Positions 2,354-64,000 of a DNA stretch of 64,000 bases are shown here, piece after piece (position 1 is the first letter of the stretch; each line of letters opens with the position of its first letter). The notes under the pieces were generated by a model. That model did not search any database. It was not told the DNA's origin and worked only from the letters and a program-made list of their open reading frames with translations. The stretch is from Lama guanicoe (taxonomy: Eukaryota). The translations under genes were made by a program, and so were the position numbers. Location: positions 1-64,000 of the forward strand of contig MU053584.1 in NCBI GenBank assembly GCA_013239625.1. Direction: 5' to 3'.

Positions 2354-2485
2354 GTATGTGAATGTCATGCAAAAAAAAAGTTACGAAGATACACAAATAC
2401 CCTTAATCAACCGTAAGAAGTCAGAAAAGCAAGAAAAAGCTCAGCACACGGTGTGTACGGATTGCAGTAGCTACAGTACGTACTG
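2354..2485 (+). CDS. USP3: USP3-like exon 3 (ZnF-UBP), 132 nt, phase 2-2, with a compensated frameshift
   Basis: taag|GTATGTG...TACTG|gtaag; reads (R)YVNVMQKKSYEDTQIPLINRKKSEKQEKAQHTVCTDCSSYSTY(C), versus recalled human RYVNGHAKKHYEDAQVPLTNHKKSEKQDKVQHTVCMDCSSYSTYC. Confidence 0.9.
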
Positions 2486-5400
2486 GTAAGTGTTACTGTT
2501 CCTTTACCGTGAGTGCAAGTGTTTTCTCATCTTCCTCGCTCTTTGCGCTTGCCCCAGCCTCTAAAGCAGTCGAGACGGCCACTGCTGCCTGTGAGTTCTG
2601 TGGGGACTCACAGAGGACGGGGCCACCAGGACCACCTGTACGTATTCATTTGCTTTGCCCTTTCAGCCTCTCCGCTGCCTCTTCTTTCCCACCTCCCGTA
2701 GGCTGCAGGGAAATGAAAAGTAACTATTATTTGTTGTTGCTCACTGTAAGTCCTTTTCTTTTTCTTGTTTTGTTTTTAATTGAAGAATGAAAGGATTAAA
2801 AACTCAGTGCCCCACCTGAGATAAAAACCCATGTTCCTATTGTCCAGTTAACATTTTGTTATATAATCTTAAATTTATAACTTATTTGTTTAAAAAATTA
2901 TTTTGACATTCTCCCCACCCCCAACACAGTTCCGGTCTCCTCTTCTCTTCGGTAGATACGTGTCAAGATTTTTGCTTATAGCTTTTCAGACCAATTTTTG
3001 TTTAAAGTATCACATCTTTTAAAAAGATTTTGGGGGCCCTGTTCTCCTTGTAATAATGTCTACATGTCTGTTTCATATAAATGACAATAAAGTAAGTGTC
3101 TGTTTTTGTGGCGACTTAGAACTAGGCTGTTTAGATTACAAGTGATGTTTAATAACCCATGTCCATTTGGTCTGCTCAGAAATTCAGTGTGTTTTACAGT
3201 TTTAACTTTAGTGTGAAGCAAATTTCTTTCCTTGTCTAGTAAATTATGAACAATTCTTTACTTGTTTTAATCACTTTACTGAATTCAAAAGGTGTTTGAT
3301 ATTGAAAGGAGAAAAAAACCCAAGCTATTTAAAGGCTCTCTTTGGATGTGTTGTAGCTGCCACACAGCCCTTGAATCAATGTCACACAAAGGCCGTAGGT
3401 CATACTGGGCAGGGATGGGGATTTAAAGTCCAGACACCGCTTTTGATTCATACTTTCTACTGAAGTTGTGTGCTGGTCCTTTCTGCATCGTCCTTAGTTG
3501 GTTATTGTAGAAAGCTGTCCATCAAAAGGAAGGAAAGAAAGGTCGGTGGTTTAACATTGCTGTGATGACTGAGTAAAGCCTCGTGAGGGCTAGCCATCCA
3601 GATCACTACCATTTCGGTGATCCTTTGTGCAGAAGGTGTCCGGACCTGGGTGAGAGAGAAGCTAGAGGCAGATGGCAATGTCAGTAGAAGTGAAAATCTC
3701 AGGATTTTCACACAAGGCCTAGTGCTCAGTTTATTGCCATTTGTTCTCATAAAACACTCCTACGAAAGTTAAGTGTTAGCCAAGCTGTTAGAGTGTTTTC
3801 ATTAGTTTCCCCCCCCCTTTCCCTCAGGAAACTAGAATGACAGAGCTACCTAATTGACAGAACTGTGTGTTACTATAAGTTTGTAAGTATTTCTCTTTAG
3901 ACAGCAGAAATTAAGATCGTTCTTGAAGTGTCTGTCTTACAGTCATCAGTGTAGGTCATGGCATCCTGTTCGTACCAGACATTGAAAACATTCAGTCTTC
4001 TTGGTTTTCAGTTAGTAATGTGCATGAAAGGCTTAATGGGGAAGTTTGGAGATACAGCTAAATCTCTGTGTGCAGTGGGTTTTCTTGCTATTGGTGAGAT
4101 TATGAGGAAATGGTAACTCTTTGAGGAAATTTAAAGAATTACCTTAGAATTTTCTTAATGGAGTGGAATTCTGTTCATAGGTCTCTTTAAAGATAAAGAT
4201 TATCTACTTTAATGTCTTTGTATATTGCATTTTGGAGGAATACCTTTATTAACTAGAATTGGAATTTAATTTGTTTTATATTTAATTTAATTTAATTTGT
4301 TTTATGTTGGAGTAGCGTGCTAAAGTACAAATCGTTTCACGGCTGAATTGGAATTAAATGGCGGATCTTGAACCTTGGGGAATAGACACCATGGCAGGGG
4401 CTTCTTGGCCAGTTCCAGTCTTCCGTGAGTGTGTGGACACCCAGAGCTTCTGAAGTGCAGGGAGCTGCAGCTGGTCACAGAACCATCCCATTTGTGGTTT
4501 TAGAACAAAGTGCCAGGGAATTTTGCTCCTGTAGCGTGATACTGACAGCCTATATGGAACCTGTGAGAGTGGTAGACCCATGAGGCTGCAGGTGAAATTC
4601 ACATTTCCCACACCTCACTGTGATGAAGAGACAAACAAAAAAGGCTTTCTTCCGCATGGGGTGTGTGTCTCTGTGTGTATTATTTCCCAGTGTACTTTAG
4701 TATTTTCACTCTAGTTTGTAAATTTTCCTTGTGTATACATTTCTTGTGGTAAGACTGAATGGTTTGTTTCTGAGGTAAAATGTTGGTATATTAGGTTAAA
4801 CCTATTTGATTGTTAATTATTATTTGTAGTCAAAAGACTTTGATTATAGCTAATGTTGAAGCTCCTTTTCCAAGACCTCTGTGCTCTGAGGAAGTTGAAA
4901 CATGTTCTGAGGCTGTTTTTCTGTCCTTACCTTCCCTTTTCCAAGAGGCCCTGTGCGTCTGTCTGTGCAGATCCTTTATGAAGTTATCACTGAGCTGTCC
5001 ACACTGTGCCACCCCCGCCCCCGCCCCCGCTCCAATTGTAGCTGGATGTGATCTCTCCTAAACTCAGAGTTCCTGAGATACTTGTAATTTCCTGCTGCAC
5101 GTTAGTTATTTGTAAATGTCCCTGGGGCCTGCAGGAGCCATATGTCACATCTTTGTATCGACCACAGTACTCAGTGTCTGGTGCAGAGCAGGGCGTAGAT
5201 GTTTGAAAGATTGAATTTTGTTAACTATCTTCCAAAAGTGGGGAAGGTTATACCAAATTTATATTACTGTGCCCTCTTGATCCTCTTGGAGGACTGAAGG
5301 GCTACGGAACATTTTTCCTGAAGATCTAAAATCATAGCATGTGTGAGCTATTCCATATACCTCCCAAGAGGGACACCCTTGCAGAGCAGCTCGCTTCACT

Positions 5401-6993
5401 TCTGATGTAAGGAGGGCATCCAGAAGAGGCACGTATCAACCAAGCAGAACAGCATAAAATAGGCCACTATTTCAAAAGAGGGAAAACGACACCAAAGGGA
5501 GTAATTCTGCTCTGACACAGACGCAGTGCTTTGGGAGACAAATGAAGATTTCAGTAAAAATGAAAATCTCAAGATTTTCACACAAGGGCAAGTGTTCAGT
5601 TAATTGTGTATTCAGTAATATTTCCTTTCCTCTCACCCCAACTCCCCTCCCCCGGTCAACACAAATGGAATTGTATGTGGTGTGCAGTACTGGATCAAAA
5701 AGAAAGACTAAAAATTAGGGGCTTTGATTTCTTACGTAGACAGATATTTAGAGTTAATATATTTTAAAAATACTGAACAGATAATTTTTGACACCTGACA
5801 TAGCCTTGTCAACGTGTAATAGCTGAATTTCTGAAGATTCAAAAGTATGAGAGGGATATTAAAACTAACCAGAATTTTTCCTTCTTGGCAGGGTAATGTT
5901 TGAAAGCACTCCTTCAAATGGAGAAATGTGAAATGTGAGTCAATTGATTTGTCTAGAAAATGGACTTCTAGTTCAGATTTTAAACACCTATAATAAATAG
6001 CCATTTTAATTAAAATTAATAAAAATAAAGCTTTTGTTTGTGGGCTTAAATTGATAGTGAATCATTTTCAGAGGCAGTTGTGATTAAAAACAGGAAGATC
6101 TTTTATTGACTAGCCTTGTAAACTTTTGGACACAAAATTTCAGTGTTGTAAAGATTAGATAACAAGAAGAATTTTTTAAATTTAAAAACAGTATTTTGCA
6201 ATTTTAGTAAAAAGAAACCTTTTAGTGCATGGTCTGAAAACAAAAGTCTCTTTCTTAATAAGCTGGTGCTTGTCTGCTTTTAACAAAGGAAATGGATTTT
6301 CTCTGCAGGTATTCTCATTTTCCAGAATTGGCTGATTTGAGGCTGATTTGATGGCAATACATTAGAATTGAATAAAAGAGAATTTAAAAATAAGCTTATA
6401 TTCTAAAAGAGTTCTTTAGTTTTTACTTTTCTTGGTTTGAAATAGGTGAAGTCATTAGAACATCAGCTTTTTTTTTTTCTGTATCTGTATCTTGTCATTT
6501 ATAGTAAAACTAGAGGTCAGAGTTTCCTCTAGATATCCTATTGTGATGATATTATCTATTAAACAGGGAAATGAAAAAGAATTTAAAATGTAATGATCTA
6601 TTTGCCCTTGTCATTCCTTGAGGGTTACTTTTTACATGAAAGTTTTTTTGTACTAATATTACACAGGACTTAGTGTATAAAGATTGCTTCATAGCCAGCA
6701 GATTAAAGGACTTGTTTCCTTACTGTTGCTTAAAATACTAGGTTAATTTGTACATTGATTACTTCTTGTTACAAATGAGTCAAAAATGGTTTGGTCTGAG
6801 AATATTTTCTTAGTTCTTCAAGAATCTGATGTGGAGCCTTATGACTTGGGTAGCTTCAGTAGCACTAACAACAGGAATGGAAAAAGCTTCAGAATTTTAA
6901 AGCTGAGAAAGAGAGAGAGAGAGTTCTATTTTGGGCATGACATCTGTGCCATACAATTCGGTAGCCGTTGAGCAATTAAAAGTCGCTAGTGGA

Positions 6994-7487
6994 CATTTAC
7001 AACAGCCAAGACATGGAAGCAATCTAAGTTTCTTACCAACACGTGATTGGATAAAGAAGATGTGGTGTAGATGTAGGTACAGTGGAATACTACTCAGCCA
7101 TAAAAGAATGAAACATGCCATTTGCAGCAACATAGATGGACCTAGAGATGATCATACTAAGTGAGGTAAGTCAGAGAAAGGCAAATATTATATGGCATCA
7201 TTTATATCTGGAATCTAAAAAAATAATACAAATGAACTTATTTACAAAATAGAAAGAGACTCACAGATACAGAAAACAAACTTACAGGTTACCAAAGGGG
7301 GAAAGGGGGGATAAATTAGGAGTATGGAATTAACAGATACACACTACTGTATATAAAATAGATAAAGAACAAGGATTTACTGTATAGCACAGGAAACTAT
7401 ATTCAGTATCTTGTGATAACCTCTAACAGAAAAGAATCTGGAAAAAGAATGTTCATATAAATATGGATACCTGAGTCACCTTGCTGT
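6994..7487 (+). mobile_element. L1 3' end fragment inserted into a hAT-Charlie (MER3/MER33-like) element
   Basis: Typical L1 ORF2-end/3'UTR text (gccaagacatggaagcaa...ggataaagaagatgtgg...actgtatagcacagg). Flanked by the near-duplicate agtcgctagtgg / agtggctagtgg. Confidence 0.85.
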
Positions 7488-7619
7488 AAAAGAGAGTGGC
7501 TAGTGGGACTGAGGAATTGAATGTTTTTATTTTATTTTAATTATTATGTTTAAATTGCCAATTGATTGGTAGCTACTGTATCAGAGTGTGGCATCAAACT
7601 TAATATTTAACATTAAGTA

Positions 7620-8410
7620 TATTACTACTATAAAACTTTCCAAACCTTAAGACAAAAATCGGATAGAAACTCCAAAAAGAAGTCAATTTTGCTAATTAAA
7701 ATAGTTGTAAGTTTACTTAAAGCAAATCTGATCCAGTAAGATGTGTCAAAAAGACAAATTATATAATTACTGAATTAATTTCATAAGTTTGCATATTCAT
7801 ATTTATTCATATATTCATTTTCAAAGGAAAACTCAGATTATTGTACCATTAGAAGCAAAAGTACGTTTATAAATAAACCATTTCTGATTTTTGAGAAACT
7901 GATAGCATTGAAATAAAAGGAAACTATTCAAATATGATAGTCCCCCCTAGAAAGGAAGCAGCTGTCACACACTGGTTGGTGGAATATTAAAGCAAAGCCC
8001 TTTCTGTTACATCAGAAACAAGGCAAGTGTTTCTGTCATCGTTTACATCCCTGTCACTATTTTTAAACATCGCTTTGGCCCTTCTAACTGTTGAAATAAG
8101 GCAAAGAATAAGTAAACAATTGCTCTAAATATTGGAAAGGAAGAAAAATTATTTCTGCTTTCAAATTATATAATAGAATACCCAGAAAACTCGAGGGCTT
8201 CAGTACAGGTAGAATTAATAAGAAATTTTGAAATAGTGCATGATAAATATGCAAAAACTAATAGTTTTCTCTTCATTAGCAGTCATTAGTTAAAATTGGA
8301 AATGACCAAACAAAAAAAATTCAACATGACAAAAACTATAAACTATATCTAGAAATAAATATAATAAAGACACAAAGCAAAGATACAGATCCTTTATGAA
8401 GAAAACTCGG
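7620..8410 (+). mobile_element. Old, degenerate L1 ORF2 remnant
   Basis: A-rich sequence with decayed L1 reverse-transcriptase-region phrases (gcaaagccctttctgttacatcagaaacaaggcaag). Confidence 0.55.
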
Positions 8411-11400
8411 CATTATAAGCAGTTTCTTTCTCTTCCCCCGGATTTTTACCTTCAAAACCTTTATTTGAGACAAGGTCCTCAAACATAATGTGAACAATTC
8501 TTAAAATCAGAATAGTATATATTGTTTTTATTCAGTAAATATTCATTGAGAACCTGCTACGTGTTAGGGGCCTGCTTTTTAGAGCAGTGGTCTCTAAAAT
8601 AATGTACTTGGGGGTATGGGAAGAAAATATCAGAATGTCTATTAAATCCTTTTATCTAAAGAAAAGAAAAAAAGGCTTTGCAAATATTTAGTCTGCCTAC
8701 TGCCACTGGTCGGTAGGTGAGATGGTTACGTGGCGTGAACCAAACGCGGAGGGTCCTGACTCGGAGCTTCACGTGTTGTCCTCACCCTTGCTGCCGTCTG
8801 GCCTTGGCCAGTGTGTAACGGTTTCTGTCTGCCTAGTTATGTGGATTCACTTGATATTACCAAATCAACCCTCATCAGATGGATACATATTTTTAAAAAT
8901 GTGCACAAGAAAAAATCCTCCAAGGTAACACTAACAGTAGTAACGCAAATACTGGTGAACAAGGAAGAGGCAAGCTGACATATGTTACTGTGAGCCCATC
9001 AGACATACCGCAAAGTAAAGATACTGGCTCTAATAAAAACACAGACCAAGCAGATCTGATTAATGGGACAAAAAGTTCGAGAGATCACATGAAGTAGGAA
9101 ATTACATCCACTGTCATTTATCTCAAGTATCACCCTATGTGTATATTGTATTTTGAGATAATAGATTCATAATGCTCTGAAGATATGAATAGCAAGATAT
9201 TTTAAAATAGTTTATTTCATCTCTAGATGATTCTTCTAAAATTTTTCTTTTTTAACTATACGTGTATTATTTTACACTTACTTGCATATATAATTAATGC
9301 AATTAATACAAACATATTGGGTGTGGTGGATGCTCAGTTTTGTGGCTTATTTTTTAACTTGATTAGGAGCCATTGACAATAATTTGATTAGGAGCCATTG
9401 GTGTTTTGTCTTTTATAATTAGAGGGGGCATGAGGTGCAGGGCAAAAAGAGAAAGGAAGCAAGTGCTTCTAAAATTAGGATTTTTAAAAGGAAGTAAACC
9501 TACATTAAATTGTAGGACAAGCAAGTGATTGAGCCGTGCTGCATGTTTTAATTTTTGGAGAACGGGGAAAGAGTACAGATGGGGGTGGCCACGTAGGAAA
9601 TAGTTTTTACCATTAAAAGAACTAAGTGGTGCTACTTGGAAAATACTGAGGAGGGTAAGGGAGTTGGTGTATGGGACAAAAGCGTATATCTAAACGTAAA
9701 GCATTTAATGCTGAAGGGAAAGGGAAGATTTGGGGGGAAAGGCGAGAGAGAAGAAAATTGAGGTGAGGTTGACATTGCGCAGACCATCAAGTACTGTAGC
9801 TTAATTCAGATACAGGTATCTGTGGATTTGAAAGTCACTGTATTTGGGGGTTGGGGGGATATCACCCCAAAGGAGGTAACCAAGGTATAGAACAAAATGT
9901 TAGTTGAGATTGAGGAGAAAAAAGATGAGTTTGGGGGAGATTATATAAAGAAACATAGAAAGGATTAGGTATGATTAGATGTGAGAAGTTAGAAAAAAAT
10001 CAAGATTACAGATGTACACATAAAGAATCAATGTAATGAAAAAAATTGGACAGTTTTGCTGTTTATTAGAGTAATCAGAATTGAAAATAACTTAAGCTGT
10101 GGTTTTTATCAATTTTTAACCTAATTATATAATAGTATAAATAACGTGTGTTTCTTATGAAAATTTACCTGCTACCTGGTAGATACTCTTTCAACACAAG
10201 GTGGTCAAATTAATTGTGTGTCTTCTGCCCTTAACAGTATGTAATACTCTACATTTAATTAGTTTGTTAACCTTTGGCTTAAAGTAGTGTAGAATTACTT
10301 TAGGATCATATTTGGCTCAAGGAACTTGGTTTGAGGCTAAGTTGTATGTAGCTAAGATGATAGTGTAGTTTGTCTCAAGGTGTTGGGCGTAGAGGAAGTG
10401 CCGGTCGTCCTCCTGCCTTTTTATATCTGATTGCCTCATCTACCGTCTCTAATATGTTTCCTAATGTGATTTCGAAGTATTTTTTTGTCTTTAGTGTTCA
10501 GTTTGCCTAAGTTTTCTTACGCAGTTCTCTCTTCTTACTAAATACAGAAGAAAATGTTTTCCTTATGTGACAAGTGGTCTGTTAGAAGTAGAGCTCATCT
10601 TTTCTGGAAGGATCACCTAAAATCATTAAAGTAAAACTTGCCTAAGTGTTAATTTAATAGCCAAAACATTGGTCAGGCGATATAGGTAGTTCCTGACTTT
10701 GGTTTGATAGACACATGAAGTCCTGTTTATATGAAGGGGCACCAAAACCTGGACGTCTGCTCCAGTTTCTCAGTGGAAAGAAGAAAAGGGTGGCACTTTT
10801 TATATTATTTCAGTTACATTTTGGGAACCAGGTGTATTTTCACTTTACAACATATAACCATACATTATACCGTTTTTCTTTCAAAATGGGAAAAAGGAAT
10901 CGACATTTCAGAGGCCAAATCTAGAAGCTTTTGAAACACAACCTGAAAGTTACTATCTTTTTTTGTACTTCTTATTCTGGTGTGACCTTTCTGAAGGGCA
11001 AACTAAGAAAAGTGGCTACATTGTTTGCAGGTGTTGGAGGAAAGCATGATTCTGACTTAGCTTCAACACAATGGTAAACCAGGAAGAGACCTTTAGAGTT
11101 TGTTTACTTGAATCAATGTCTCAGCTAAAGACTAAGGCAACAGACAGCATTTAAATTCTTATTTATTTCCTACTTTTGTAACTTATTTTCTTTTGACCTC
11201 TGGGTCAGGGAGGAAGAAGAAATCAAAATGGGGGATGGGGGCAGCTAGAGGAGAGAGGGCTGTAAGGCAGCTCTTGGTTCCGCCATGGAAGGAAGCTCAC
11301 ACGTATCCACCCTCTACCACGTGCCAGGTGCTCTTGGAAGTTTTGACCCTTAGAAGCAGATGCTTTCCTTTCATCATCAGCAGCTAACACAGAGCGCAGT

Positions 11401-11632
11401 AGATTCAGGCAGTGTGCAGTTTATAATCTTGGCAGGAAATGTCCTTCCGAGTGACTGTAAGAAGACCTAAAATTGACTCTTGACAAATAGGGATAATTGT
11501 GAAAACTTAAAATGTGTTAAGCCAGTGTCCAGTTAAGTCCAGTTGAAGTTGATTTCTTATAATTCAATAAAGTTATAGTTGTTACCTGTTTATGATGTTG
11601 GGCAGGTAGCATCTTAGATATTCTTTAGACTA

Positions 11633-12000
11633 GCAGTGCTGTCCAACAGAAATAATTTATCCCGTATGTAATTTATAATTTTCAAGTAGCCACATTAAAA
11701 AAGCAAAGAGAAATAGGCTAATTAATTTTAATTGTGTATTTTATTTAACCCAGTTATCCAAAGTATTATGTCAACATGGTAATTTATATAGAATTATTAG
11801 AGATAGTTTGCGTCTTTTTTTATGAAACCTTCAAAATCCAACGTGTATTTTATACATACAGAATGTCTCCATTCAGATGCTAACTTTTCATCCGAAATGC
11901 TTGATCTGTATTTAGTCATTAAAATTGCAGTTAAAAATGTAGATTACAAACACTATTAAGATTTTGCCAGTTAATGAGTAAAGTACCAGAAAACCCCATT
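11633..12000. mobile_element. hAT-Charlie (MER33/Charlie1-like) DNA transposon fragment
   Basis: cagtgctgtccaacagaaat terminus; tagccacattaaaaaag...aattaattttaat. Confidence 0.7.
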
Positions 12001-42695: not shown

Positions 42696-42696
<1 letters not shown>

Positions 42697-52215: not shown

Positions 52216-52874
52216 ACATGTTTTTGTAGTTCTTCTCTGTCCTTCTTTCATACTCTTTTCTTATGGTTAGTTGATTTTCTTTATTGTTACATTTGTGTTT
52301 CTCTTACTTGTTTTTGCATAGCTAATGTAGGTTTTCAATTTATGGTTACCATGAGGTTCATATAAGTTGCTCTGTTACGTATCTGATTGTTTTAAAGAGA
52401 TTATCATTTAAGGTCCTATAAGTTCTAAAAGATCTGCTGTTTTACTCCCTCTCTCCTCTTTTTTTTAGTTTTATTTTTTACATCTTCATGTGCCTCCTAT
52501 AAGTGTTTATTGCAAGTATAGTTGTTTTTACAATTTTTGTTTTTTAGCCTTTGTAGCAGCTTCTTTAAGTGCTTGATTCACAGCTATTGCTCCATTTTTA
52601 CTTTAAAGTGGGATTTTCCTCTTTATATAAGTTCTTATTTCTTTTTCTTTTTCACATAAAGAAAACCTAATACTTCTTGTAACGTCAGTTTAGAATTGAT
52701 GAACACTTAGTTTTTACTCATCTGAGAAGCTCTTTAAGTCTCTTTCAGTTTTGATAAATAACTTTGCTGAGTAGGTAGCCTGGATTCTAGGTTTTTCCCT
52801 TTGAGTGCTTTAAGTATATCATGGCTATTCCTTCTGTCCTGTAATGACTGCTAAAAGCTAGCTGATAGGCTTCC

Positions 52875-53178
52875 ATGAGCTCACCTCTCCTTGTGACTAC
52901 AGTGAAACCACAACTGACTGCTAAATAAGCATTGGATAAAAGACTGGAACCTAGCAAAAAAAGACCCTCAACTGGAAACGTAAAGAGGGAACCACAGCAG
53001 GATGGTGGGAGGGGCATTCTCATGATGTAGTTGGGCCCCATACCCCCCGGTGTGGGCAACTTACAAGCTGAAGAATAAGTCACAGAGAACCTCCCACAGG
53101 AGTGAGAGTTATAAGCCCAGCATCAGGCTCCCCAGCCTGGGGTTCTGGCGTTGGGAGGAGGAGGAGACCCCAGGACAT
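52875..53178 (+). mobile_element. L1 5'UTR-like fragment
   Basis: gagctcacct...gactggaacctagcaaaaaaagaccc...ctcccacaggagtgagagtt...catcaggctccccagcctgggg resembles artiodactyl L1 5' ends. Confidence 0.55.
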
Positions 53179-55105
53179 CTTTTTTTTTTTTTAATATTCT
53201 TTTTATTTTTTAATTTTACTGAGTTATAGTTAGTTTACACTGTTGTGTCAATTTCCAGTGTAGAGCACAATTTTTCAGTCATACATAAACATACATATAT
53301 TCATTGTCACATTCTTTTTCTCCATGAGATGCCACAGATCTATATATATTTCCCTGTGCTATACAATATAAACTTGTCTGTCTGTTCTATATATATCAGT
53401 CAGTATCTACAAATTTCAAACTCCCAGTCTGTCCCTTCCCACCCCCCTCGCCCCTGGCAACCACAAGTTTGTATTCTATGTCTATGAGTCTGTTTCTGTT
53501 TTATATTTAAGTTCATTTGTCTCCTTTTTTTTTTTAGATTCCACATATGAGTGATATCATATGATATTTTTCTGGCTTCACTTAGAATAACATTCTCCAG
53601 GGACATCCATGTTGCTGCAAATGGCATTGTGTTGTCATTTTTCATTGCTGAATAGTATTCCATTATATAAATATACCACAACTTCTTTATCCAGTCATCT
53701 GTCGATGGACATTTAGGCTGTTTCCATGTCTTGGCTATTGTAAATAGTGCTGCTGTGAACATTGGGGTGCACGTGTCTTTTTAAAGTAGGATTCCTTCTG
53801 GATATATGCCCAGGAGTAGGATTGCTGGGTCATATGGTAAGTCTATTCCTAGTCTTTTGAGGAATCTCCATCCTGTTTTCCACAGTGGCTGCACCAAACT
53901 GCATTCCCACTAGCAGTGTAGGAGGGTTCCTGTTTCTCCACAGCCTCTCCAGCATTTGTCATTTGTGGACCTTTGAATGATGGGCATTCTGACTGATGTG
54001 AGGTGAGAGCTGATTGGAGTTTTTGATTTGCATTTCTCTGATAGTTAGTGATATTGAGCAGTTTTTCATGTGCCTATTGATCATTCATATGTCTTCCTTG
54101 GAGAATTGCTTGTTTAGGTCTTCTGCCCATTTTTGGGTTGGGTTTTTTGTTTTTTTTCTTATTAAGTCATATGAGCTGCTTATATATTCTGGAGATCAAG
54201 CCTTTGTCAGTTGCATCTGTTGGAGATATTTTCTCCTATTCTGTAGGTTGTCATTTTGTTTTGCTTATGGGTTCCTTTGCTATGCAAAAGCTTATAAGTT
54301 TCATTAGGTCCTGCTTGTTTATTCTTACGTTTATTTCTGTTGCTTGGATAGACTGCCCTAGGAGCACATTGTTGAGATGTATGTGAGATAATGTTTTGCC
54401 TATGTTTCCTTCTAGGAGGTTTATTGTATCTTGTCTTACATTTGAGTCTTTGATCCATTTTGAATTTATTTTTGTGTATGGCGTAAGAAAGCTAGCTTCC
54501 TTGCTTCATTGCTTTACATGCTGCTGTCCAGTTTTCCCAGCACCATTTGCTGAAGAGACTGTCTTTATTCCATTGTATGTTCTTGCCTCCTTTGTCAAAG
54601 ATTAGTTGACCAAAAGTTTGTGGGTTCCTTTCTGGGCTCTCTGTTCTGTTCCGTTGGTCCGTATGTCTGTTTTTGTACCCATTGGTCCATATATCTGTTT
54701 TTGTACCAATAGCATGCTGTTTTGACTACTGTAGCTCTAATATTGTCTGAAGTCTAGGAGGGTTATTCCTTCAGCCTCTTTCTTTTCCTTCAGTAATGCT
54801 TTGGGAATTCTGGGACTTTTGTGATTCCATATAAATTTAATATGATTTGTTCTAGTTTTGTGAAATACGTCCTGGGTAGTTTGATAGGGGTCGCATTAAA
54901 TCTGTAGATTGCCTCGGGCAGTATGTTCATTTTAACAACACTGGTTCTTCCAATCCAGGAGCATGGGATATCTTTCTATTTTTTTAAGTCTTCTTTAATT
55001 TCCTTAATCAATGTTTTGTAGTTCTCCACGTGTAAGTCTTTCACCTCCTTGGTTAGATTTATTCCTGGGTATTTTATTCATTTGGGTGCTATTTTAAAAG
55101 CGACT
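53179..55105 (-). mobile_element. Younger L1 3' fragment with poly(A) tail (poly-T at 53179)
   Basis: MFTAALFTIAKTWKQPKCPSTDDWIKKLWYIYIMEYYSA is the ORF2 C-terminus. Contains a 28-bp internal tandem duplication at 54651-54706. Confidence 0.93.
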
Positions 55106-55569
55106 GCATAAGCTCTTTATGATTGTGTGGTTGTAATTGTGGGAGCAGCAACCAAAATAATGTATATAATAATAAATATTTCTTAATATATATCCAATAA
55201 ATTAAAGAAATATTGAGACAATACTACCAAAATAATATAATAACACCAGATATAAACGTGTGATAACAATTACATCAGATGCTTTGAGTAATGGTAGTAT
55301 GTATAAGTAGAGCTGTATTGTCAACCATAGAAGTAAAAGTTTCCTTAATGTTTCCTGTAGTAAAGTTATATTGTTTGCAGCAAACAATAATAACTTACAA
55401 TACCATTTTTTGTTTGATGATTTCTGTAAAATTAAATTTAAAAATCACATCTGTCTAAGGATTAGATAGAAGTGGCTAAGTTGCTGTTTGGTTGCTTAAC
55501 TTTCTTTTTACTGTTCCTTTCTTGTACAGTCTTATGCCTATCACAATATTTAAGCATCCATTTTTCAGG

Positions 55570-55800
55570 CAGGGAGGGCTAAATGAGGGATTGGGGATTA
55601 ACACACAAGTTAGTATATATAAAACAGATAAACAACAAGGACCTACTGTAGAGCACAGGGAACTGTGGTGAAATATTTGTCATATAAAGTGGAAAAGACT
55701 CTGAAAAGAAAAAATATAGATGTATGTATATGCATAACTGAATCATTTTGCTATACGCCAGAAACTAACATTGTAAGTCAACTATGCTTCAATAGAAGTT
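55570..55800 (+). mobile_element. L1 3' terminus
   Basis: aaaacagataaacaacaaggacctactgtagagcacagggaact...aacattgtaagtcaactatgcttcaat. Confidence 0.85.
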
Positions 55801-56909
55801 TTTTTAAAAATTCCACTTTTGTATATAACTGAGAAAGTAAGTTGAAGATCACATGAACTTCTGTGTTTTCATCAAGGGCAGCCATTTGTGTAAATGCACC
55901 TGCATATTCCCACTGGTAGTTTTTGATATTCAAGGGAAAGGCAACTCAAAACACCAACAGCTCTTTGTAAAAAAGTAACAATGATTGTGGTTTCAGTAGG
56001 GGTTTTTACAAACTTCTCTTTAACTCTATGCCTGAATTATATGACACAGAGAATACTAAAATAAAGTTCTCTGTGTTAGTAAGTGATTTCTCCCAATGGT
56101 TCAACTGTTGTACTTTAAAAATTAAATGGAAAAGCATTAAAGGAATTTAAATATGAATTGTATTGGGTGTGCATTAATCATTAAGTATGAAAGATGGACG
56201 GGGTATTCTTATTAAGTAAATATTCTAGCATTACCCTTCATAGACAGACAACTGTTAAAGATGGATGAAGCAGAAATAAAAATAAAATCTTGAAGATTCT
56301 GAAAGACCTTAGAAATACTGTGTATTCAATAAGCAGTGCATTAGGCTTAAAGTATCAGAGCCTTAAAATATAGTTAATTTATTGATAATAGAAATCTTTA
56401 AAACAGGTATCAGTGAATGCCATTTGGGTACATCTTATTATTTATGTGCAAAGTACTTTTCACCAAGCTAATACCTGTCCATCCAATAAATAACAAAATA
56501 ATAAAGGATTATTTGTTTCATTCAAGACAAGTAAGATACTTGCTTTCCATAGATGCTTTTCCCAGTTTGCAAAATTCTTCCCCAAACCCAGTGCTGCTTC
56601 TTGTAACTTCAAATAAATACACGTGAATATTGAGATTCGTATTACCTAAGTGACTTGCCAGAGTTTTCACAACCAACAATTACAACAGGATGAGTATTGA
56701 AATTTCTATCAATTCACCATAATATGTAGGATTTTCACTTTGTTTTCAACCCCAGTTTTTATCAGAGAGTCTGGATCAAATTGGTCTTAGTAATATGTTG
56801 GATTGAGGTGGACTTCTAGGATTGGTTAACTGTTTACAGAATAAATAATGTCTAGGCTAATTACTAACTGGGAAAATCAGGTAAAAAGATGGTAAAATCT
56901 CATTCATTG

Positions 56910-58800
56910 ATTTTTATTTTTACATTTAAAATTTCAGTATTAGTAAAGCATAATTGACAGACACGTGTAGAAAACATACTGTATGTCACAGTGGTTTGAT
57001 ACACATACTCACAGTAACAGGATTCTCTCCATGTAGTTAATTAACACACATCAGCTCAAATATTTGTCTTTTTTGTTGTTGTTGTTGGTTGAGAAGACAT
57101 AGTTTCTACTCTTAAAAAGCATTAATTATACAGTAAGTGTTGTCAACTATAGTCACCATATGTAACATTAGATCCTCAAAGCTTATTCTTCTCATTGCTG
57201 AAAGTTTCTAGCCTTTTACCAGCCTCTCATTATTTCCCCACCCTCCATTCACTGGCAGTCACTTTTCTACTCTCTATTTCTTTGAAATTCACTTTTTCTT
57301 TTTTAGATTTCTCATCTGCCTGATACCACGCAGTCTGGCTTATTTATTTTGCATAATGCCCTCAAGTTCCATCCGTGTTGTTTGGAAAATAGGAGGCTTT
57401 CCTTCTTTGTCATGGCTGGTTAATATTCCACTTGAGTGTGTGTGACTTCCATATCCGTGCATCCTTGGGTGGTCATTTAGTTTCTGTCTCTTGACTATCG
57501 GGAATAATGCCGCATGACAATGGGTGTGCAGATACCTCTCTGAATTCTGTTTTCACTTTCTGTGGATGTACACCCAGAAGTGGAATTGCTGAATCATATG
57601 ATAGTTCTGTTTTTAATTTTTTTTAAGGAACCTCCATACTGTTTTCCATAATGGCTATACGAACTTACATTTCCACCAACAGTGTATGTGGGTTTCCTAA
57701 TCTCTGCATCCTCTCCAACTCAGGTTGTGTCTGTCTTTTTGATGACAGCCACTCTAACGGGTGTGAGGTGATACCTCTTTGTCACTTTGATGTGCATTTC
57801 CCTGATGATTAGTGACGTGGAGCAGCATTTTATGTCCCTACTGGCCATTTGTATGTCTTCTTTGGAAAAATATTTATTCAGTTCCTTTGCACATTTATTA
57901 ATCATATTGTTTGTTTTTTTGGATTGAGTTGTATGAGTTCGTGTATTTTGGATATTAGTCCTTATCAGTGATATAATTTGCCAATATTTTTTCTCATTCC
58001 ATAGGTTGCCTTTTCATTTTTTATTATTCTGTTTGCCGTGCAGAAATTGTGAAGTTTGATGTAGTTACTTATTTTTGCTTGTATTGTCTTTGCTTTTGGT
58101 GTGAAATTTGAAGAATCATAACCAAGATCAATGTCAAGAAATTTACTGATGTGTTTTCTCATAGGAGTTTGATAATTTCAGGTTTTCCGTTCAAATCTTT
58201 AAACCATTTTGGTTGATTTTTGTCAATGGTATAAAATAGGGTCTGGTTTCACTCTTTGCAGGTTTCTGTCCATTTTGTTCAACACCATTGATTGAAGAGG
58301 CTGTCCTTTCCCCACACCCTTCTTGGCTTCTTGGTCATAAACCAATTGATCACTGATATGCAGGTTTAATTCTGGGCTCTCTGTTCTATTGCGTTGATCT
58401 ATTTGTCCTTATTAAGGTCTGTATTATATTGTTTTGATTATTGTAGCTCTGTAGCATTTTAAATCAACGTGATACCTTTAGCTTTGTTCATCTTTCTCAA
58501 GATTGTTTTTTAAGATTGCTACTTGGGTCTTTTGTGGCTTAATACACATTTTAGGATTGTTTGTTCTGTTTCTGGGGGATATCTCATTGGAATTTTAGTA
58601 GAGATTACATTGAACCTGTAGATTGCTTCAAGTGACATGAACATTTTAACAATATGAATTCTTCCAATCCACGAGCCCAAAATAACTTTTCATTTATTGT
58701 TGTCCTCAGTTTTTTCATCAGTGCCTTACAGTTAATAGTGTGAAGATCTCTCACCTTCTGTGTTAAGTTTATTCCTAGGTATTTTATTTTGATGCAATCA
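56910..58800 (-). mobile_element. L1 (L1MA-like) 3' fragment
   Basis: [48 protein letters not shown] on the minus strand. Confidence 0.9.
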
Positions 58801-59044
58801 TAATTTAAGCTAAAGCTCAGGCTGCGTTTTGTGCAGCTCTTACCTCCATTGTATTGGATCGGCCCTCTGGCTGTTCAGCAGAGCACCATTTCCCAAGGGA
58901 GGTTGATCACATAATGATCATGTAGTTTTATTGCTGTTTTGTTCAATATGAATGCTTTAATAAGTGGTTTTAAATAATACATAGTTTAAAGCTTATGTTA
59001 TACATACTAAGTCTATATCTACTGTATATGTTTTATATAAATAC

Positions 59045-59106
59045 GTGTGTGTGTGTGAGTGTGTGTATACACACACACTCACACACACACACACACACAC
59101 ATACAC
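59045..59106. repeat. (GT)n/(AC)n compound microsatellite forming a perfect 22-bp inverted repeat
   Basis: 59045-59066 is the exact reverse complement of 59071-59092. Confidence 0.95.
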
Positions 59107-59539
59107 TAAATATATTCATTTAGTACATTAGTAAGGTAGGTAGTTTCAAGAATCAAATACTGTCTTTTTGGTCCAAAACAAAACGCTGGTTTGACTAGTA
59201 ACATTTACTATACGCTGAATTTCTTCATTCTGGTAAGATAAGTGCAGTTTTCTCATTCATTCCATCAAGTTACTTGGTGAATCTCTACCTAGGAACAATC
59301 TGTTTCTTCTTAGGAAAGTCATTAAAAATTTTTTCGTGCCCTTGGTTGCCCTTCATGCACCCTCTCTTCCGTCTACAGTGTTAAATACTTCTAAAATTCC
59401 ATAGTCCGCCATGCCTTAAAAAGAGAAGAAAGCCTCTTCCAACACTGAAGTATTTTATGTAGATGATCCAGCTTCTCATAAAGATTCTCTCTGATTATAT
59501 AGCTTATTAAAAGTAGAGAATAACTTCACAGACTGCCTG

Positions 59540-60290
59540 AGAAAGACTGTCTTTACTCCACTGTATGTATTTGACTCATTTGTCAAAGATTAATTGACCA
59601 AAAGTTTGTGGATTTATTTCTGGGCTCTCTCTTCTGTTCCATTGATCCATATGTCTGGTTTTGTACCAATACCATGCTGTCTTGATGACTGTAGCTGTAT
59701 AGGAATGTCTGAAGTCTGCGAGTCATTTCTACAGCTTCGTTCTTTTTCTTCAGTATTGCTTTGGCAATTCTGGGTCTTTTGTGATTCCATTTAAATTTTA
59801 GTATAATTTATTCTAGTTCTGTGAAAAGTGTCCTGGGTAATTTAATATGAATGGGATTTTAAAACTGTAGATTGCTTTGTGTAGTATGGCCATCTTAATA
59901 TTAATTCTTTGAATCTAAGAACATGGGATGTCTTTCCATTTCTTTCGGTCATATTTAATTTCCTTAGTCAGTGTTTTGTGCTTCTCCACATACGTCTTTC
60001 ACTTCCTTGGTCAGGTTTATTGCTAAATATTTTATTTTTTTGAATGCAATTTTAAAAGGGATTGTTTCTTTACTTTCCTTTTCTGATAGAGATTTGCAGA
60101 TACTAACTGATACGTATAGAAAAGATAAACAAGTTCATGCTGTATCTCGCAGGGAACTATATCCAATACATTGCAGTAACTTATGATGAAACAGAATATG
60201 AAAACAAATACACGTATGTTCATATATGAGTGAAGCATTGTGCTTTGCACCAGAAATTGACACAACATTGTGAACTTACTATCCTTCAAT
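59540..60290. mobile_element. L1 with a minus-strand ORF2 piece (59540-60084) fused to a plus-strand 3' terminus (60085-60290)
   Basis: Orientation switches at about 60085. The plus-strand part is the reverse complement of the kind of sequence seen at 53230-53420. Confidence 0.75.
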
Positions 60291-60379
60291 AATATATGTG
60301 TGTATGTATGTGTGTGTGTGTGTACACATATACACAAACAATAAGACAGGATCCCAGGAGGCCTCAGTGCACTTGTCCC

Positions 60380-60600
60380 AGCCCTTAGAAACCATGATTA
60401 TGTGGCAAAGTCCCCATTTAGCATATATCCAGTATTGACCAGATGACATTCAAACAATTCAGTGCAAATTCTTTCCAATCCTGGCATTGCCCAGGTGTCC
60501 TTGACCCTCACTGGCAGGTGGGCACAAATGGACTCACGTGCACATTGACAGTGGGATCTCACCGGCTTGAGCAGGAATGTGCGCAGGAACTCCCTTTGCA
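60380..60600 (-). mobile_element. Possible ERVL/MaLR internal (gag-like) remnant
   Basis: Minus-strand EFLRTFLLKP..ESICAHL..VRVKDT and MGTLPHNHGF loosely resemble recalled ERVL gag motifs (RVWD, MGxLSRDSGF). Confidence 0.35.
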
Positions 60601-61682
60601 AGATAATCTTGGGAGGCCTCAAGAAAGTGGTTTCCCAGCGTCCACACCCATCTAGGCATTGCCAGCAGTCCTATCTCTGGCCATCTCTCTAGTTGCAGCT
60701 CTACCACTGAGGTACCACTATGCCTAGCTGTGTGCCCACCAGCAGCATCGGTCCTTAAGAGCTCAGCTGTTTCTGGAAGGGGGAAGACAAACATTCCCTC
60801 CCTTGGTGGTAAACTCAGTTATAGGGGTCTCAGGCTGGGTTGCTCAGGCCCTGGATGTCAGTGAATTACTGAGATGACATTTGTTCACCCACGCTCTCCA
60901 CTGGATCGGGGGAGCTCAGGCAGTTCAGCTGCAGTAGTAGCTATTCCACTGGCCCTAAACTCCTATTCTGCACCCAACCACAGCAGACCTGGGCTGGCCG
61001 TGCACCGGGGGCCTGGCCTTCATATACCCTATTCCTGAAGTTAGGTGATTCTCTGCCCATCTTGTATGCTCTGACCTCTAACCAAGGGATCCCAATATAT
61101 ATCTCATCTGCACAACACACTGACCAAACTTCAGCTCCAGCCCAGTTTCCCCATTGCCTGAAACCATCTTAGTGCTTAGTATTATTATCCTGGTTTAATT
61201 TTTTTTTTAAGATAAACTGAAGCCTAGTAGGTTTTAAGTAGCTTTTCAGAGATGATATAGGAAGCAGTGGAACAGGAATTGAAAACTTGATATCTCTTGA
61301 GAGAACTTGAACGTCTTTGTCCTTCTCACTCCTGCATGTTGTACCCAGATGCCTGTTACTCTGTCTGACTTTCCCTCATCACCTGGGGAAGGCTTACTCT
61401 AACCTGTCCCAAGAGCAAACCCCAGATGCCCACTACAGAGAGACTAAGGTAGGGGTGGAGCGAAAGGGCTAAGCAGAGGACAGAAGGAGCCAGTGAGCCT
61501 GGGAGTGGGGCCTCGACTGCCACTGAAGTCACCGGCAGGGAGAGGGACTAGAAAGGTCTGTCTTCAGGGACTCCCTGCCCTCCCAAATGGTGCGCTGGCA
61601 TGGGCTGCTAGTGCTCATTGCCAAAGTCAAACACAGACAAGCTACGGAGGTGAGAAGAAACTAACAGAAATCATACGCTTCT

Positions 61683-61870
61683 GGTTTCTAGTCTAGGGTA
61701 CGAGGAGCTTGGAAGTCATCCCTCCCATCCTCAAAACAAGAAAAGATGAACAGACCGAAAAGAAACAACTCTTCCTAGACCCATCAGAGAACTGAGGTCA
61801 CAGGGCAAACCACTGCCCTGAGAATTGGAGAAGCAGGCAGATGCTTTATACGGTATTATCAGAGAAGCCC
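61683..61870 (+). mobile_element. Old L1 (L1MC/MD-like) 5' end fragment
   Basis: ggagcttggaagtcatc...caactcttcctagacccatcagagaactgaggtcacagggcaaaccactgccc. Confidence 0.55.
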
Positions 61871-62204
61871 AGGCCCAGTGTAGGCAGGGACTGGAACCAG
61901 CACTGTGACACGCAGGCCCCAGGTCCAGCTTCTCCACGGGATGAGCATTCCAGATGAGGGGAGCACTCCAGATGAGGGAAGCACCAGCCTCTCTCCTGCT
62001 GGTCAGGGCTGGCACAAGCTGTGGTTGCCGCTGTAATGCTCAGCAGACCCATGGCTGAGTCAATGAGTAGCACTTACCAGCCTTGACACCTGTGTGCCTT
62101 GGCTGCGGTCAGTGCCCATGAAGTCTTGAGGAAGGCCAGTCTTCCTCCTGCAGGGAGGCAATCTTCAATAAGTAAACCTTGCCCTCTCGTTACTTCAAGA
62201 ATCA

Positions 62205-62948
62205 AAACCCAGCCATGACAATCTCAGGTATACAGCTATGAGAAATGAAAACATATTTCCCCACAAAAGCTTGTATACAAATATTCACAGCAGAACCTTA
62301 TGATATAATGCATAATTGTGAGAAAAGTGGGAAATAAGGTATATTTTCATTTTTGCTTGTATCTGAAACATTGGAAATACCATATAAGAAACGAAGTAGT
62401 TATCTAATGATGGTAGGGGAACTAAGGTGTCATAAGGGTGGAAGTGAAACTTCTCAATGTACAGCATTCTGTTATTTTAACTTTAAATTGTGAATGTGTT
62501 CTAAATTTGAAACATGTTTAGAAAACCATAGGAATTATAGTCACCAACTATACTTGAAATATTGGAAGCATGAACAATGTTTTTAAAATATATAACTATT
62601 CAAAATTTGAGTTGGGGAGAACAGTGGTAGAAGAGAATCTGTTAAATTTTCAAAACAGACTCAATAGATAATTTCTAAATTGGAAATACAGAATTTAGAA
62701 AATACATAATGTCTTTAATTTATTTCACAACCTCTTAATGCATTTCATAATTTTATTTACTTACTGATTTCCCATCACAAAGATACATTCATTTGAAATG
62801 CAGTAATTTCTCCAGTTTTGTTTTAGTTTTTTTCTTCTATTAAGTTCAAATAAAATTACAATGAACAATTTTGGTGTAAAAAAAAAACTTGTATACAAAT
62901 ATTCATAGCAGAATTAATCCTAATAGGCAAAAAGGTTACAAATCTGTA
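62205..62948 (+). mobile_element. L1 ORF2-end fragment interrupted by a poly(A)-tailed insertion with 26-bp flanking direct repeats
   Basis: gagaaatgaaaacatatt..cacaaaagcttgtatacaaatattca.agcag is L1 text. The repeat lies at 62270-62295 and 62888-62913. Confidence 0.7.
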
Positions 62949-63850
62949 GGGACACCAGACCCGCCCCCGGGGACACGAGAGCCAATCCGAGTGCACGCTT
63001 CCTGGCCCCGCCCCTCCCTCCACCCACCCTAAGGTCAGTTTGCCAGGCGGTCAGGCGGCAGCATGTCGGAGCAGCTGGCGGTTCTGCGGTTCTCGCGAGC
63101 AGCGCCGGCCTTGCTCCCTCCGGCCAGCGGCGGCGGCGGCGGCAGCGCAGTCCCTCCGGGAGGCGCGGTGTTGGCCGAGCGGCGGCCGCGGAGCTTCTTG
63201 TCCAGCGCGGCGGCGGCGGCGGTGCGGCCCCGAGATGGTGCGTGGGCAGGTGTTCGACGTGGGCGGCGCTCCAGCAACCTGCTACACCGGCGAGGGCTCC
63301 CCCGGCGTCCTGTGGTGAGTGTCCGCGCCCCGCCTGCCGGCCGCGCCCGCCCGCGCGTTCCCCCGTCCGGCATCGGCGGGCGCAGCTGCGGCGTAGGCCC
63401 CGAACCCGCGACCCCAACCGCGAGCCCGGCCCCAACCCCAGCAGGATTGCCCCGCCGTCCGCGCACCGGGGGTCTCGGGCGGAGCCAGGCGGCTCGCGCT
63501 GGGGCGTTACTCGTGGCGCTTCCCGGGCCGGCCCTCGCTGGGCGCGTTGAGTAGGGGAGTGGCGAGGGGGTGGGAGGTGGAGGCCGGGACCCGGGCACTC
63601 AGGGACTCTGAGGACCGTAACAGGGCCCCGACCCCCGGGTGCTCCCCGCGCGGCTTTCCCTTGACGTCCGACTGGGAAGCCAGTAAGTCCTGAGAAGCTC
63701 GCGGCGGGGCCGTGGTCTGGAAAGCGGTCGGCAGCGGCGTGTGTGCACAGCCCCGAAATCATCTTGTTTGCCCCCCTCGCCTGCGTTTTCCGCGGCCGGC
63801 TTTGCTTGAGCCCCTTCCGTGCTGCCAGGGCTGCTCTCCTGCGCAGCCTT
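62949..63850 (+). promoter_or_regulatory. CpG island with TATA-less core promoter (GC boxes, CCAAT box) of MAPK1 origin
   Basis: Abrupt switch to very GC- and CpG-rich sequence. CCGCCC at 62961-62966, CCAAT at 62982-62986, GGCCCCGCCCC at 63004-63014, followed by MAPK1-like 5'UTR. Confidence 0.85.
63010..63314 (+). pseudogene. MAPK1: Degenerate unprocessed copy of MAPK1/ERK2 exon 1, followed by intron 1
   Basis: A (GCG)n tract, then [29 protein letters not shown] and TG|gtgagt, versus recalled [40 protein letters not shown] with a phase-2 donor at the same position. The native first ATG is absent. Confidence 0.9.
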
Positions 63851-64000
63851 TCTAAGCAGTATGAGCGGCTGTAGTGTTGGTGTGGAGTGTTTCAATCTTG
63901 AAGTTTTAAAGTGGATGTTGATGTGGTACTGTTCCCGCTTCAGGAAGGATAAGTCGGCGTTCCTGTCTTGATTTCTGCAGGGGTCGTTTGGAGTTGGGCC

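What the first reader, a model, noticed from the sequence alone, without database searches (positions are those of the whole stretch)
2354..64000. Three-gene mosaic: intron-containing pieces of USP3, COL12A1 and MAPK1 joined on one strand
Seen: USP3 exons 3-11, six COL12A1 FN3 exons and the MAPK1 promoter/exon 1 lie within 62 kb, all on +, all with introns and splice sites, and none complete. Known: in human these genes are on chromosomes 15, 6 and 22, and USP3 is normally followed by exons 12-15, then FBXL22 and HERC1. Inferred: this is a DNA-level (not retrotransposed) interchromosomal duplication hub in a camelid, of the kind that produces new chimeric genes. I do not know of a description of this arrangement.
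Basis: partly seen in the sequence, partly recalled or inferred. Interest (0 to 1): 0.88.

Follow-up and report, generated by a model that had tools for sequence, protein, structure and literature searches.

The report
Camelid mosaic of duplicated gene fragments
This stretch is a real patchwork of old, decaying DNA copies of parts of three genes (USP3, COL12A1, MAPK1), belonging to a larger family of duplicated blocks in camelid genomes; this is a known kind of genome structure that has not been described for these genes.

Summary
The window is the first 64 kb of a 76.8-kb scaffold. On the + strand it carries USP3 exons 3-11 with introns, seven decayed COL12A1 exons, and a decayed MAPK1 exon 1 inside an intact CpG island.

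Intact parent genes lie on three other scaffolds: USP3 on C1293, COL12A1 on C4240, MAPK1 exon 1 on C5414. The window copies are diverged paralogues. K2P distance is about 0.09 for USP3 outside near-identical patches and 0.14 for COL12A1; MAPK1 identity is about 70-90%.

The USP3-to-COL12A1 junction is not an assembly error. Scaffold C5553 carries the same junction at 91-94% identity. Three Camelus "USP3" protein models contain COL12A1-derived segments.

The pieces belong to multi-copy modules. The MAPK1 5' element gave 53 matches on 30 contigs. COL12A1 fragments lie on 9 non-parental contigs. USP3 has at least 3 partial copies.

Only the join at 60,087, on the MAPK1 side, lacks independent support.

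Verdict: a mosaic segmental duplication with a core-like MAPK1 CpG-island module. It is a new member of a known kind and of moderate interest.

The parts
1..34665 (+). USP3-derived duplicon (intron 2 to intron 11), holding exons 3-11. Exon cores: 2352-2483, 16001-16081, 18847-18936, 20125-20211, 21432-21548, 23974-24087, 26276-26425, 29355-29459, 29627-29704.
   Evidence: Collinear with C1293:1368313-1405275. Overall identity is 94.5% over 33,156 aligned bases, patchy at 89-93% with tracts of 98-99.9% at 8-10 kb and 16-23 kb. Exons by tblastn. All 9 are open. dN/dS against the parent is 0.54.
478..855 (.). Only assembly gap (N-run) in the window.
34666..34851 (+). Junction J1: about 187 bases matching neither parent, ending in a CT-rich tract.
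   Evidence: The same junction lies on C5553:66007-70000, collinear across it at 91.5% and 93.6%.
34852..45055 (+). COL12A1-derived duplicon, running from the intron after the last VWA exon through the FN3 exons. Seven pseudo-exons: 36104-36190, 36737-36832, 38308-38457, 39169-39300, 41208-41345 (stop), 42292-42387, 44806-44948 (broken).
   Evidence: Matches C4240:7409707-7420502 (parental COL12A1) at 81-86%, K2P 0.137. Matches C5183 at K2P 0.145.
45055..48400 (+). Module X, a further multi-copy duplicon of unassigned origin, with an FN3-like remnant at 45321-45395.
   Evidence: 12 other contigs match at 74-85%, most at 80-82%. C5553:78040-83233 matches at 87-89%. FN3-like match.
48401..60087 (-). 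Interspersed repeats, mostly antisense (L1-like by recalled ORF2 motifs). Includes repeat R at 59537-60088.
   Evidence: Many genome-wide matches at 80-87%, with 69,927 first-look candidates.. Negative AT skew. Pfam: 0 of 12 ORFs hit.
60088..62900 (+). Module Y, upstream of the MAPK1-derived part. Not shown to be the MAPK1 promoter.
   Evidence: C4142 92%; C811 x3 88%. Only 60474-61844 matches C4304, C7914 and C2983, at 87%. No C5414 hit among the 40 of 628 candidates scored.
62900..64000 (+). MAPK1-derived 5' end. CpG island at 63001-63900. Degenerate exon 1 ends at about 63314 with its GTGAGT donor kept. [13 protein letters not shown] is encoded at 63226-63264.
   Evidence: ATG lost, several indels. 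CpG observed/expected 0.82-0.97 at GC 64-79%. Parent at C5414, ATG at 1029245. Homology to C4142 runs on to 64283 of the scaffold.

Best explanation
The window is part of a camelid mosaic segmental duplication, a block built by DNA-level copying of pieces of unrelated genes into one place and then copied again as a block.

Order of events inferred from divergence:
1. A 5' piece of MAPK1 with its CpG island was copied and amplified many times.
2. A COL12A1 piece (VWA to FN3 exons) was copied and spread to several sites.
3. A USP3 piece (exons 2-11) landed in an intron of one COL12A1 copy, splitting it.
4. The resulting mosaic was duplicated again, giving C5553 and later C246.

Patches of near-identity to the parental USP3 point to gene conversion or to mixing by the assembler.

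The coding parts are not maintained. USP3 lacks exons 1 and 12-15, so it has no His box. Its remaining exons change at a near-neutral rate. The COL12A1 and MAPK1 exons are broken. The block can still be transcribed and spliced into chimeric USP3-COL12A1 RNAs, as Camelus gene models show.

Shown here: the duplications, the intact parents, the shared junction J1, the copy counts and the decay. Inferred: the order of events, their dating and the mechanism.
For: Intact parents.

Collinearity with introns.

J1 shared with C5553. The spacing from the last USP3 exon to the COL12A1 FN3 exon is 8.6 kb on both scaffolds.

COL12A1 VWA exons lie upstream of the USP3 part on C5553 (8.6 kb) and C246 (17.7 kb), while C5183, C7703 and C8784 carry an undivided COL12A1 copy. 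The breakpoint falls at C4240:7409707, between the VWA exon (7408310-7408480) and the FN3 exon (7410917-7411108).

K2P distances:
- COL12A1, window to parent: 0.137
- USP3 tail, window to parent: 0.088
- Window to C5553: 0.058-0.079
- Window to C246: 0.005

MAPK1 5' element: 53 matches on 30 contigs, self included, at 68-89%, from 40 of 155 candidates scored. In a tree of 10 copies the window is sister to C4142.

Exons 1 and 12-15 of USP3 occur only on C1293.

The alpaca model P0013 fits the window copy at 97-100% in the diagnostic exons, against 88-92% for the parent. Camelus models P0003, P0005 and P0026 hold COL12A1 segments (E 2e-10, 8e-10, 2e-14).

14 DNA runs under five coded organism labels hold 66-79% of the sampled words of 29000-38999.
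Against: Continuity of the scaffold therefore rests on the assembly itself and on paralogues.

The join at 60,087/60,088 is not seen on any other scored scaffold. Relative to C4142 and C811, repeat R is inverted and about 1.1 kb is missing. That could be a misjoin in a repeat.

The near-identical tracts coincide with orphan contigs at 89-94% identity by the search (C11251 is 96.5% by blastn). Part of the USP3 stretch may therefore be parental sequence placed here by the assembler.

The three COL12A1 copies compared are about equally distant (0.134-0.145). The order of their duplications is set only by shared amino-acid changes.

Genome searches scored only the best 37-90 candidates, so all copy counts are lower bounds and absences are weak evidence.
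Confidence: 0.8

Rival explanations
1. Assembly chimera: the scaffold joins unrelated loci through shared repeats, so the three-gene adjacency does not exist in the animal.
For: This is a fragmented assembly of 55,231 contigs. Many 200-800-base orphan contigs overlap the window. The join at 60,087 lies in repeat sequence and is unique to this scaffold.
Against: No junction sits on an N-run. J1 and the COL12A1-to-module-X join recur on C5553, and the latter also on C7703 and C5183. Camelus gene models combine USP3 and COL12A1. MAPK1-like and COL12A1-like or X modules co-occur on C4142, C811 and C243.
Confidence: 0.05
2. Only the MAPK1 side is misjoined. USP3-COL12A1-X is real, but the link to the MAPK1-type module at 60,087 is an assembler error or a private inversion.
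For. No other scored scaffold crosses 60,087. Repeat R has the opposite orientation on C4142 and C811.
Against: The sequence is contiguous with no gap. The window's MAPK1-like copy is distinct: it is 88% identical to its closest relative and is its own tip in the tree, so it must lie somewhere. The same modules co-occur on other scaffolds.
Confidence: 0.2
3. The acceptor site is the USP3 neighbourhood itself. Older COL12A1/MAPK1 duplicons landed next to USP3, and a local tandem duplication then copied USP3 exons 2-11 into them. On this reading USP3 was not moved to a distant hub.
For: The alpaca model that fits the window copy is named 'USP3 isoform X4', not 'USP3-like'. As I recall NCBI naming, that implies the same gene locus. 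Long conversion-like tracts to the parent are commoner between neighbouring copies (recalled).
Against: The parental scaffold C1293 shows no such block within the 60 kb I read. The window scaffold is unplaced. The naming rule is recalled and was not tested.
Confidence: 0.35
4. A selected new gene: the truncated USP3 copy or the USP3-COL12A1 chimera encodes a maintained protein.
For: All 9 USP3 exons are open. There are no indels in 501 exon bases, where intron density predicts about 7 over both lineages together. Gene models exist in three species.
Against: dN/dS is 0.54 against a constrained parent, as expected if the copy drifts. Amino-acid changes fall almost entirely on the window copy. 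The His-box exons are absent. The chimeric tail has a stop in the window where the dromedary model reads on. The indel test overstates its case, because the parent cannot take indels and introns hold indel-prone tracts.
Confidence: 0.07

Closest known systems
Mosaic (interspersed) segmental duplications and 'core duplicons' of primate genomes (Bailey & Eichler 2006, seen cited in PMC13751797; Jiang et al. 2007, recalled)
   Same: Intron-bearing pieces of unrelated genes are juxtaposed, and the block is then re-duplicated. An older, higher-copy module (MAPK1 5') is flanked by younger ones (COL12A1, then USP3). There is patchy identity suggesting gene conversion. Chimeric transcripts are modelled.
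   Different: This is a camelid, not a primate. The core-like module holds a CpG island with a broken exon and no intact gene family. Chromosomal spread was not established here.
Pseudogene-rich repetitive blocks on alpaca chromosomes 11, 17 and 36 (PMC13751797, 2026; passages read)
   Same: Same animal group. These are multi-copy, fragmented gene-derived sequences in repeat-rich domains, attributed there to segmental duplication followed by decay.
   Different: Those blocks carry NEK10, ATF5, FMN2, uS3m, ACTB and ABHD17A fragments and are reported as absent or reduced in camels. 'Ubiquitin', 'collagen', 'mitogen', MAPK1 and COL12A1 have 0 occurrences in that paper's main text. The present mosaic has counterparts in Camelus gene models. 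I did not open that paper's supplements.
Processed pseudogenes (retrocopies)
   Same: They are also non-functional extra copies of parts of genes.
   Different: Here the introns are retained throughout and homology runs through non-coding DNA, so the copying was at DNA level.

Membership tests
Segmental duplication (DNA-mediated) | At least 1 kb at 90% identity or more to another locus of the same genome (definition recalled) | tested here: met
   Window to C1293: 94.5% over 33,156 bases. Window to C246: 99.5% over 10,759 bases. Window to C5553: 91.5-93.6%. The COL12A1 and MAPK1 parts are below 90% to their parents, so they are older than the usual cut-off.
Segmental duplication (DNA-mediated) | Introns and flanking non-coding DNA are copied along with the exons | tested here: met
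   Collinear intron alignments. Exon spacing equals that of the parent.
Mosaic duplication block | Adjacent segments derive from different ancestral loci that still exist intact | tested here: met
   Parents lie on C1293, C4240 and C5414. Whether these are different chromosomes was not tested.
Mosaic duplication block | Junctions are shared by paralogous copies, showing secondary duplication of the mosaic | tested here: met
   J1 is shared with C5553. The COL12A1-to-X join is shared with C5553, C7703 and C5183. The module Y-to-MAPK1 order is shared with C4142, C811 and C7914. The join at 60,087 is not shared.
Core duplicon | One module is present in most blocks, at the highest copy number and the greatest age | tested here: inconclusive
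   The MAPK1 5' element gave 53 matches on 30 contigs at 68-89%, against 9 non-parental contigs for COL12A1 and at least 3 partial USP3 copies. Counts are lower bounds, and the blocks themselves were not delimited.
Core duplicon | The core carries an expressed, rapidly evolving gene family | tested here: not met
   Exon 1 is degenerate in the window and was absent or degenerate in all 11 other MAPK1-like copies fetched. No downstream coding exons were found on the scaffold. Expression was not tested.
Processed pseudogene | Intronless copy of an mRNA | tested here: not met
   Introns are present between all exons.
Active USP-type deubiquitinase | Both the Cys box and the His box of the UCH domain are present | tested here: not met
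   The Cys box is present. Exons 12-15 (aa 365-520) occur only on C1293.

The most novel reading that the evidence does not exclude
The MAPK1-derived CpG island is a camelid 'core duplicon'. It is a promoter-type element amplified to 50 or more copies. All 10 copies with an ungapped island keep a full-strength CpG island, with observed/expected about 0.95-1.05, despite 10-30% sequence divergence. That would mean these copies stay unmethylated in the germ line. On this reading they act as live promoters that seed lineage-specific chimeric transcripts, such as USP3-COL12A1, in reproductive tissue.
Probability: 0.2. Interest if true: 0.6.

Novelty: new member of a known kind. Interest (0 to 1): 0.35.

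Why it matters
As I recall, interspersed mosaic duplications with a core module have mainly been worked out in primates. A documented camelid example, with shared junctions, dated layers and annotated chimeric models, would give a second lineage in which to study how such blocks grow.

It has a practical side. Camelid 'USP3 isoform' models that contain collagen XII segments are products of this block and should not be read as USP3 biology.

CpG islands kept in many diverged MAPK1-like copies are a testable hint of promoter activity.

Tried and rejected
There is therefore no read-level support, no depth and no splice joints.

Pfam on 122 ORFs of 34.8-46.8 kb gave one weak fn3 hit (E 0.0036, below cut-off) and two chance-level hits. 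Half-domain exons are too short for Pfam.

Pfam on 12 repeat or module-X ORFs gave 0 hits.

A PDB search with a COL12A1-like ORF gave 0 hits.

A protein search for MAPK1 with the degenerate exon gave 0 of 1135 candidates. The parent was found by DNA instead.

I first took C4142:135-140 kb for the MAPK1 parent. I rejected this because it shares the window's degenerate exon and the scaffold also carries COL12A1 VWA remnants at 60-61 kb.

Y-linkage was considered but could not be tested. The alpaca Y paper has 0 mentions of the three genes.

The end of collinearity with C5553 beyond 48.4 kb is therefore unknown.

RNA shares of 0.17-0.19 (X18-X20) are too small to use.

Earlier scan notes by place and by sequence gave nothing for this stretch.
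Full report
**Setting.** The window is bases 1-64000 of contig C1232, a 76,808-base scaffold of a 2.05-Gb assembly in 55,231 contigs. Its only N-run is 478-855. Earlier scan notes call the genome camelid. An alpaca protein model fits the window's USP3 copy at 97-100% in the diagnostic exons.

A 520-aa mammalian USP3 (P0017) aligns to nine collinear + strand exons between 2352 and 29704, covering aa 51-365. On the parental scaffold the gene has 15 exon matches, so these are exons 3-11.

A Camelus ferus partial protein and a Marmota 'Collagen alpha-1(XII)' fragment align to seven exon remnants between 36104 and 44948. There is a stop at 41208-41345 and a broken frame at 44806-44948. A further FN3-like bit lies at 45321-45395.

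Bases 63226-63264 encode [13 protein letters not shown], identical to ERK2 chains in the PDB. Against the parental exon the ATG is lost and there are several one- and two-base indels, while the GTGAGT donor is kept.

**Parents.** Three intact parent loci lie on other scaffolds.
- C1293 (5.07 Mb) holds all of USP3, aa 1-520, at 1340546-1422447.
- C4240 (8.36 Mb) holds COL12A1 exons at 90-99% to the camel protein.
- C5414 (1.26 Mb) holds an intact MAPK1 exon 1 ([38 protein letters not shown]), with its ATG at 1029245.

These are extra, diverged copies.

**USP3 module.** Window 1-34665 is collinear with C1293:1368313-1405275, apart from a 3.3-kb repeat insertion in C1293.

Identity is 94.5% over 33,156 aligned bases but patchy. 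It is 89-93% in most 1-kb bins and 98-99.9% at 8-10 kb and 16-23 kb. This is either gene conversion or parental-type sequence placed here by the assembler. Orphan contigs at 89-94% by the search cover the same tracts. One of them, C11251, is a distinct fourth version.

Other copies are C246 (K2P 0.005 over 10,759 bases) and C5553 (exons 3-11 at 62-83% protein identity, with stops). Exons 1 and 12-15 occur only on C1293.

The window's nine exons are open. dN/dS against the parent is 0.54. The amino-acid changes fall almost entirely on the window copy when a bat USP3 is used as reference. That is what a drifting copy paired with a constrained parent would give.

The 501 unconverted exon bases hold no indels, where intron density predicts about 7. 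I discount this test. The parent cannot accept indels, and introns hold indel-prone tracts.

**COL12A1 module and junction J1.** Window 34852-45055 matches C4240:7409707-7420502 (K2P 0.137) and a copy on C5183 (0.145). Those two differ from each other by 0.134. The window and C5183 copies share derived residues and a stop, so they descend from one first duplicate.

The breakpoint in COL12A1 lies in the intron between the last VWA exon and the first FN3 exon.
- C5553 carries COL12A1 VWA exons at 7.8-8.8 kb, USP3 exons 3-11 at 31-63 kb and COL12A1 FN3 exons at 71-74 kb.
- C246 carries a VWA exon at 17.7 kb upstream of its USP3 part.
- C5183, C7703 and C8784 have VWA and FN3 exons side by side.

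I infer that the USP3 piece was inserted into an intron of an existing COL12A1 copy.

J1 itself (34666-34851, unmatched filler ending in a CT-rich tract) is present on C5553:66007-70000, collinear across the junction at 91.5% and 93.6%. Two scaffolds about 6-8% apart share the join, so it cannot be an assembly artefact.

**Further modules.** From about 45055 a module X begins. It matches 12 other contigs, mostly at 80-82%, and C5553 at 87-89%. C5553 therefore stays collinear with the window from 32.9 kb to at least 48.4 kb.

Bases 48.4-60.1 kb are interspersed repeats. I call them L1-like from memory of ORF2 motifs; Pfam gave nothing.

Bases 60088-62900 (module Y) match C4142 at 92% and three units on C811 at 88%. 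A 1.4-kb part also matches C4304, C7914 and C2983 at 87%. There was no hit on the MAPK1 parent among the 40 of 628 candidates scored. I do not accept this stretch as the MAPK1 promoter.

**MAPK1 module.** A 601-base query over the exon-1 region gave 53 matches on 30 contigs, self included, at 68-89%, with 40 of 155 candidates scored.

Of the 12 loci fetched (the window's own and 11 others), none has an intact exon 1. The parent was found separately.

In a tree of 10 copies the window is sister to C4142. The C811 units come next, and the parent lies about 0.23 away. Two short C243 rows and one C811 unit without a hit were left out.

Ten of the 12 loci, including the window's own, keep a full CpG island (GC 0.77-0.82, observed/expected 0.95-1.04). 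The other two were interrupted by gaps or lacked the island.

**The weak join.** At 60,087/60,088 the window joins repeat R (59537-60088) directly to module Y. On C4142 and C811, R is in the opposite orientation and 1.1 kb away. No other scored scaffold crosses this point. It is either a private inversion or an assembler misjoin.

The wider association of MAPK1-like with COL12A1-like or X modules does recur, on C4142, C811 and C243.

**Other species and expression.** Three Camelus 'USP3' models contain COL12A1-derived segments.
- Bactrian P0026: aa 1-38, E 2e-14.
- Dromedary P0005: aa 154-190, E 8e-10.
- Dromedary P0003: aa 57-90, E 2e-10.

P0005 maps on the window as USP3 exon 11 followed by 36752-36850 and 44798-44926. 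In the window the last of these has a stop where the dromedary model reads on.

The mosaic therefore predates the split of Old and New World camelids. This is an inference, consistent with K2P 0.06-0.14.

With a generic mammalian rate of about 2.2e-9 per site per year (recalled), the layers date to roughly 30 My (COL12A1), 20 My (USP3), 15 My (window/C5553) and 1 My (window/C246). Slower rates stretch these dates.

Fourteen DNA runs under five coded organism labels hold 66-79% of the sampled words of 29000-38999. Three runs listed as RNA (one of them a guess) hold 26-29%.

**Literature.** Three full-text searches (listings only) found no paper linking these genes in camelids.

PMC13751797 (passages) describes pseudogene-rich repeat blocks on alpaca chromosomes 11, 17 and 36 with other genes. 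It has 0 occurrences of MAPK1, COL12A1, 'ubiquitin', 'collagen' and 'mitogen'. Its supplements were not opened.

PMC6598621 (passages), PMC7830431 (passages), PMC11513024 and bioRxiv 10.1101/2025.08.28.672513 (term counts only) mention none of the genes I searched them for (USP3 and MAPK1 in the first; all three in the others).

An earlier scan note reports a comparable camelid family of partial TRAPPC9 copies. I did not test it.

**Verdict.** This is a real mosaic segmental duplication of decaying gene fragments, with a high-copy MAPK1 CpG-island module. It is a new member of a known kind. Interest is moderate. The CpG-island retention and the annotated chimeras are the parts worth following.

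Noticed in passing
window 63001-63900; loci L025-L033: The CpG islands of the MAPK1-like copies stay at observed/expected about 0.95-1.04 and GC 0.77-0.82, although the copies differ by 10-30%. Decay would be expected if they were methylated in the germ line.
   Followed up: partly
C811:25198-27567, 44911-48082, 64237-68214: Three MAPK1-like units lie in tandem with a period of about 19.3 kb. Two of them differ by only about 0.6% in the tree.
   Followed up: partly
window 8000-10000 and 16000-23000: These tracts are 98-99.9% identical to parental USP3 within a 89-93% background. Orphan contigs at 89-94% identity by the search cover the same places. The cause is either gene conversion or mixing by the assembler.
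   Followed up: partly
C5183:3252013-3252357 and 3254126-3254470: The COL12A1 copy on C5183 carries its first VWA exon pair twice, an internal duplication.
   Followed up: no
C5553:79519-81039 and 81714-83233: Both stretches match window 46874-48400 at 89%. This is a local tandem duplication within module X on C5553.
   Followed up: no
window 59045-59092: This 48-base stretch matches itself on the opposite strand at 96%, so it is a palindrome. It lies just left of repeat R and the unsupported join.
   Followed up: no
window 29000-38999 (runs X15, X16, X17): Runs listed as RNA, two labelled 'reproductive system', hold 26-29% of the sampled words of a mostly intronic stretch. This hints at transcription of this copy or a near-identical one.
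   Followed up: no
C4142:60091-61422: COL12A1 VWA remnants lie 75 kb from a MAPK1-like unit, near the start of a 4.6-Mb scaffold. This may be the edge of a duplication block anchored in unique sequence.
   Followed up: no
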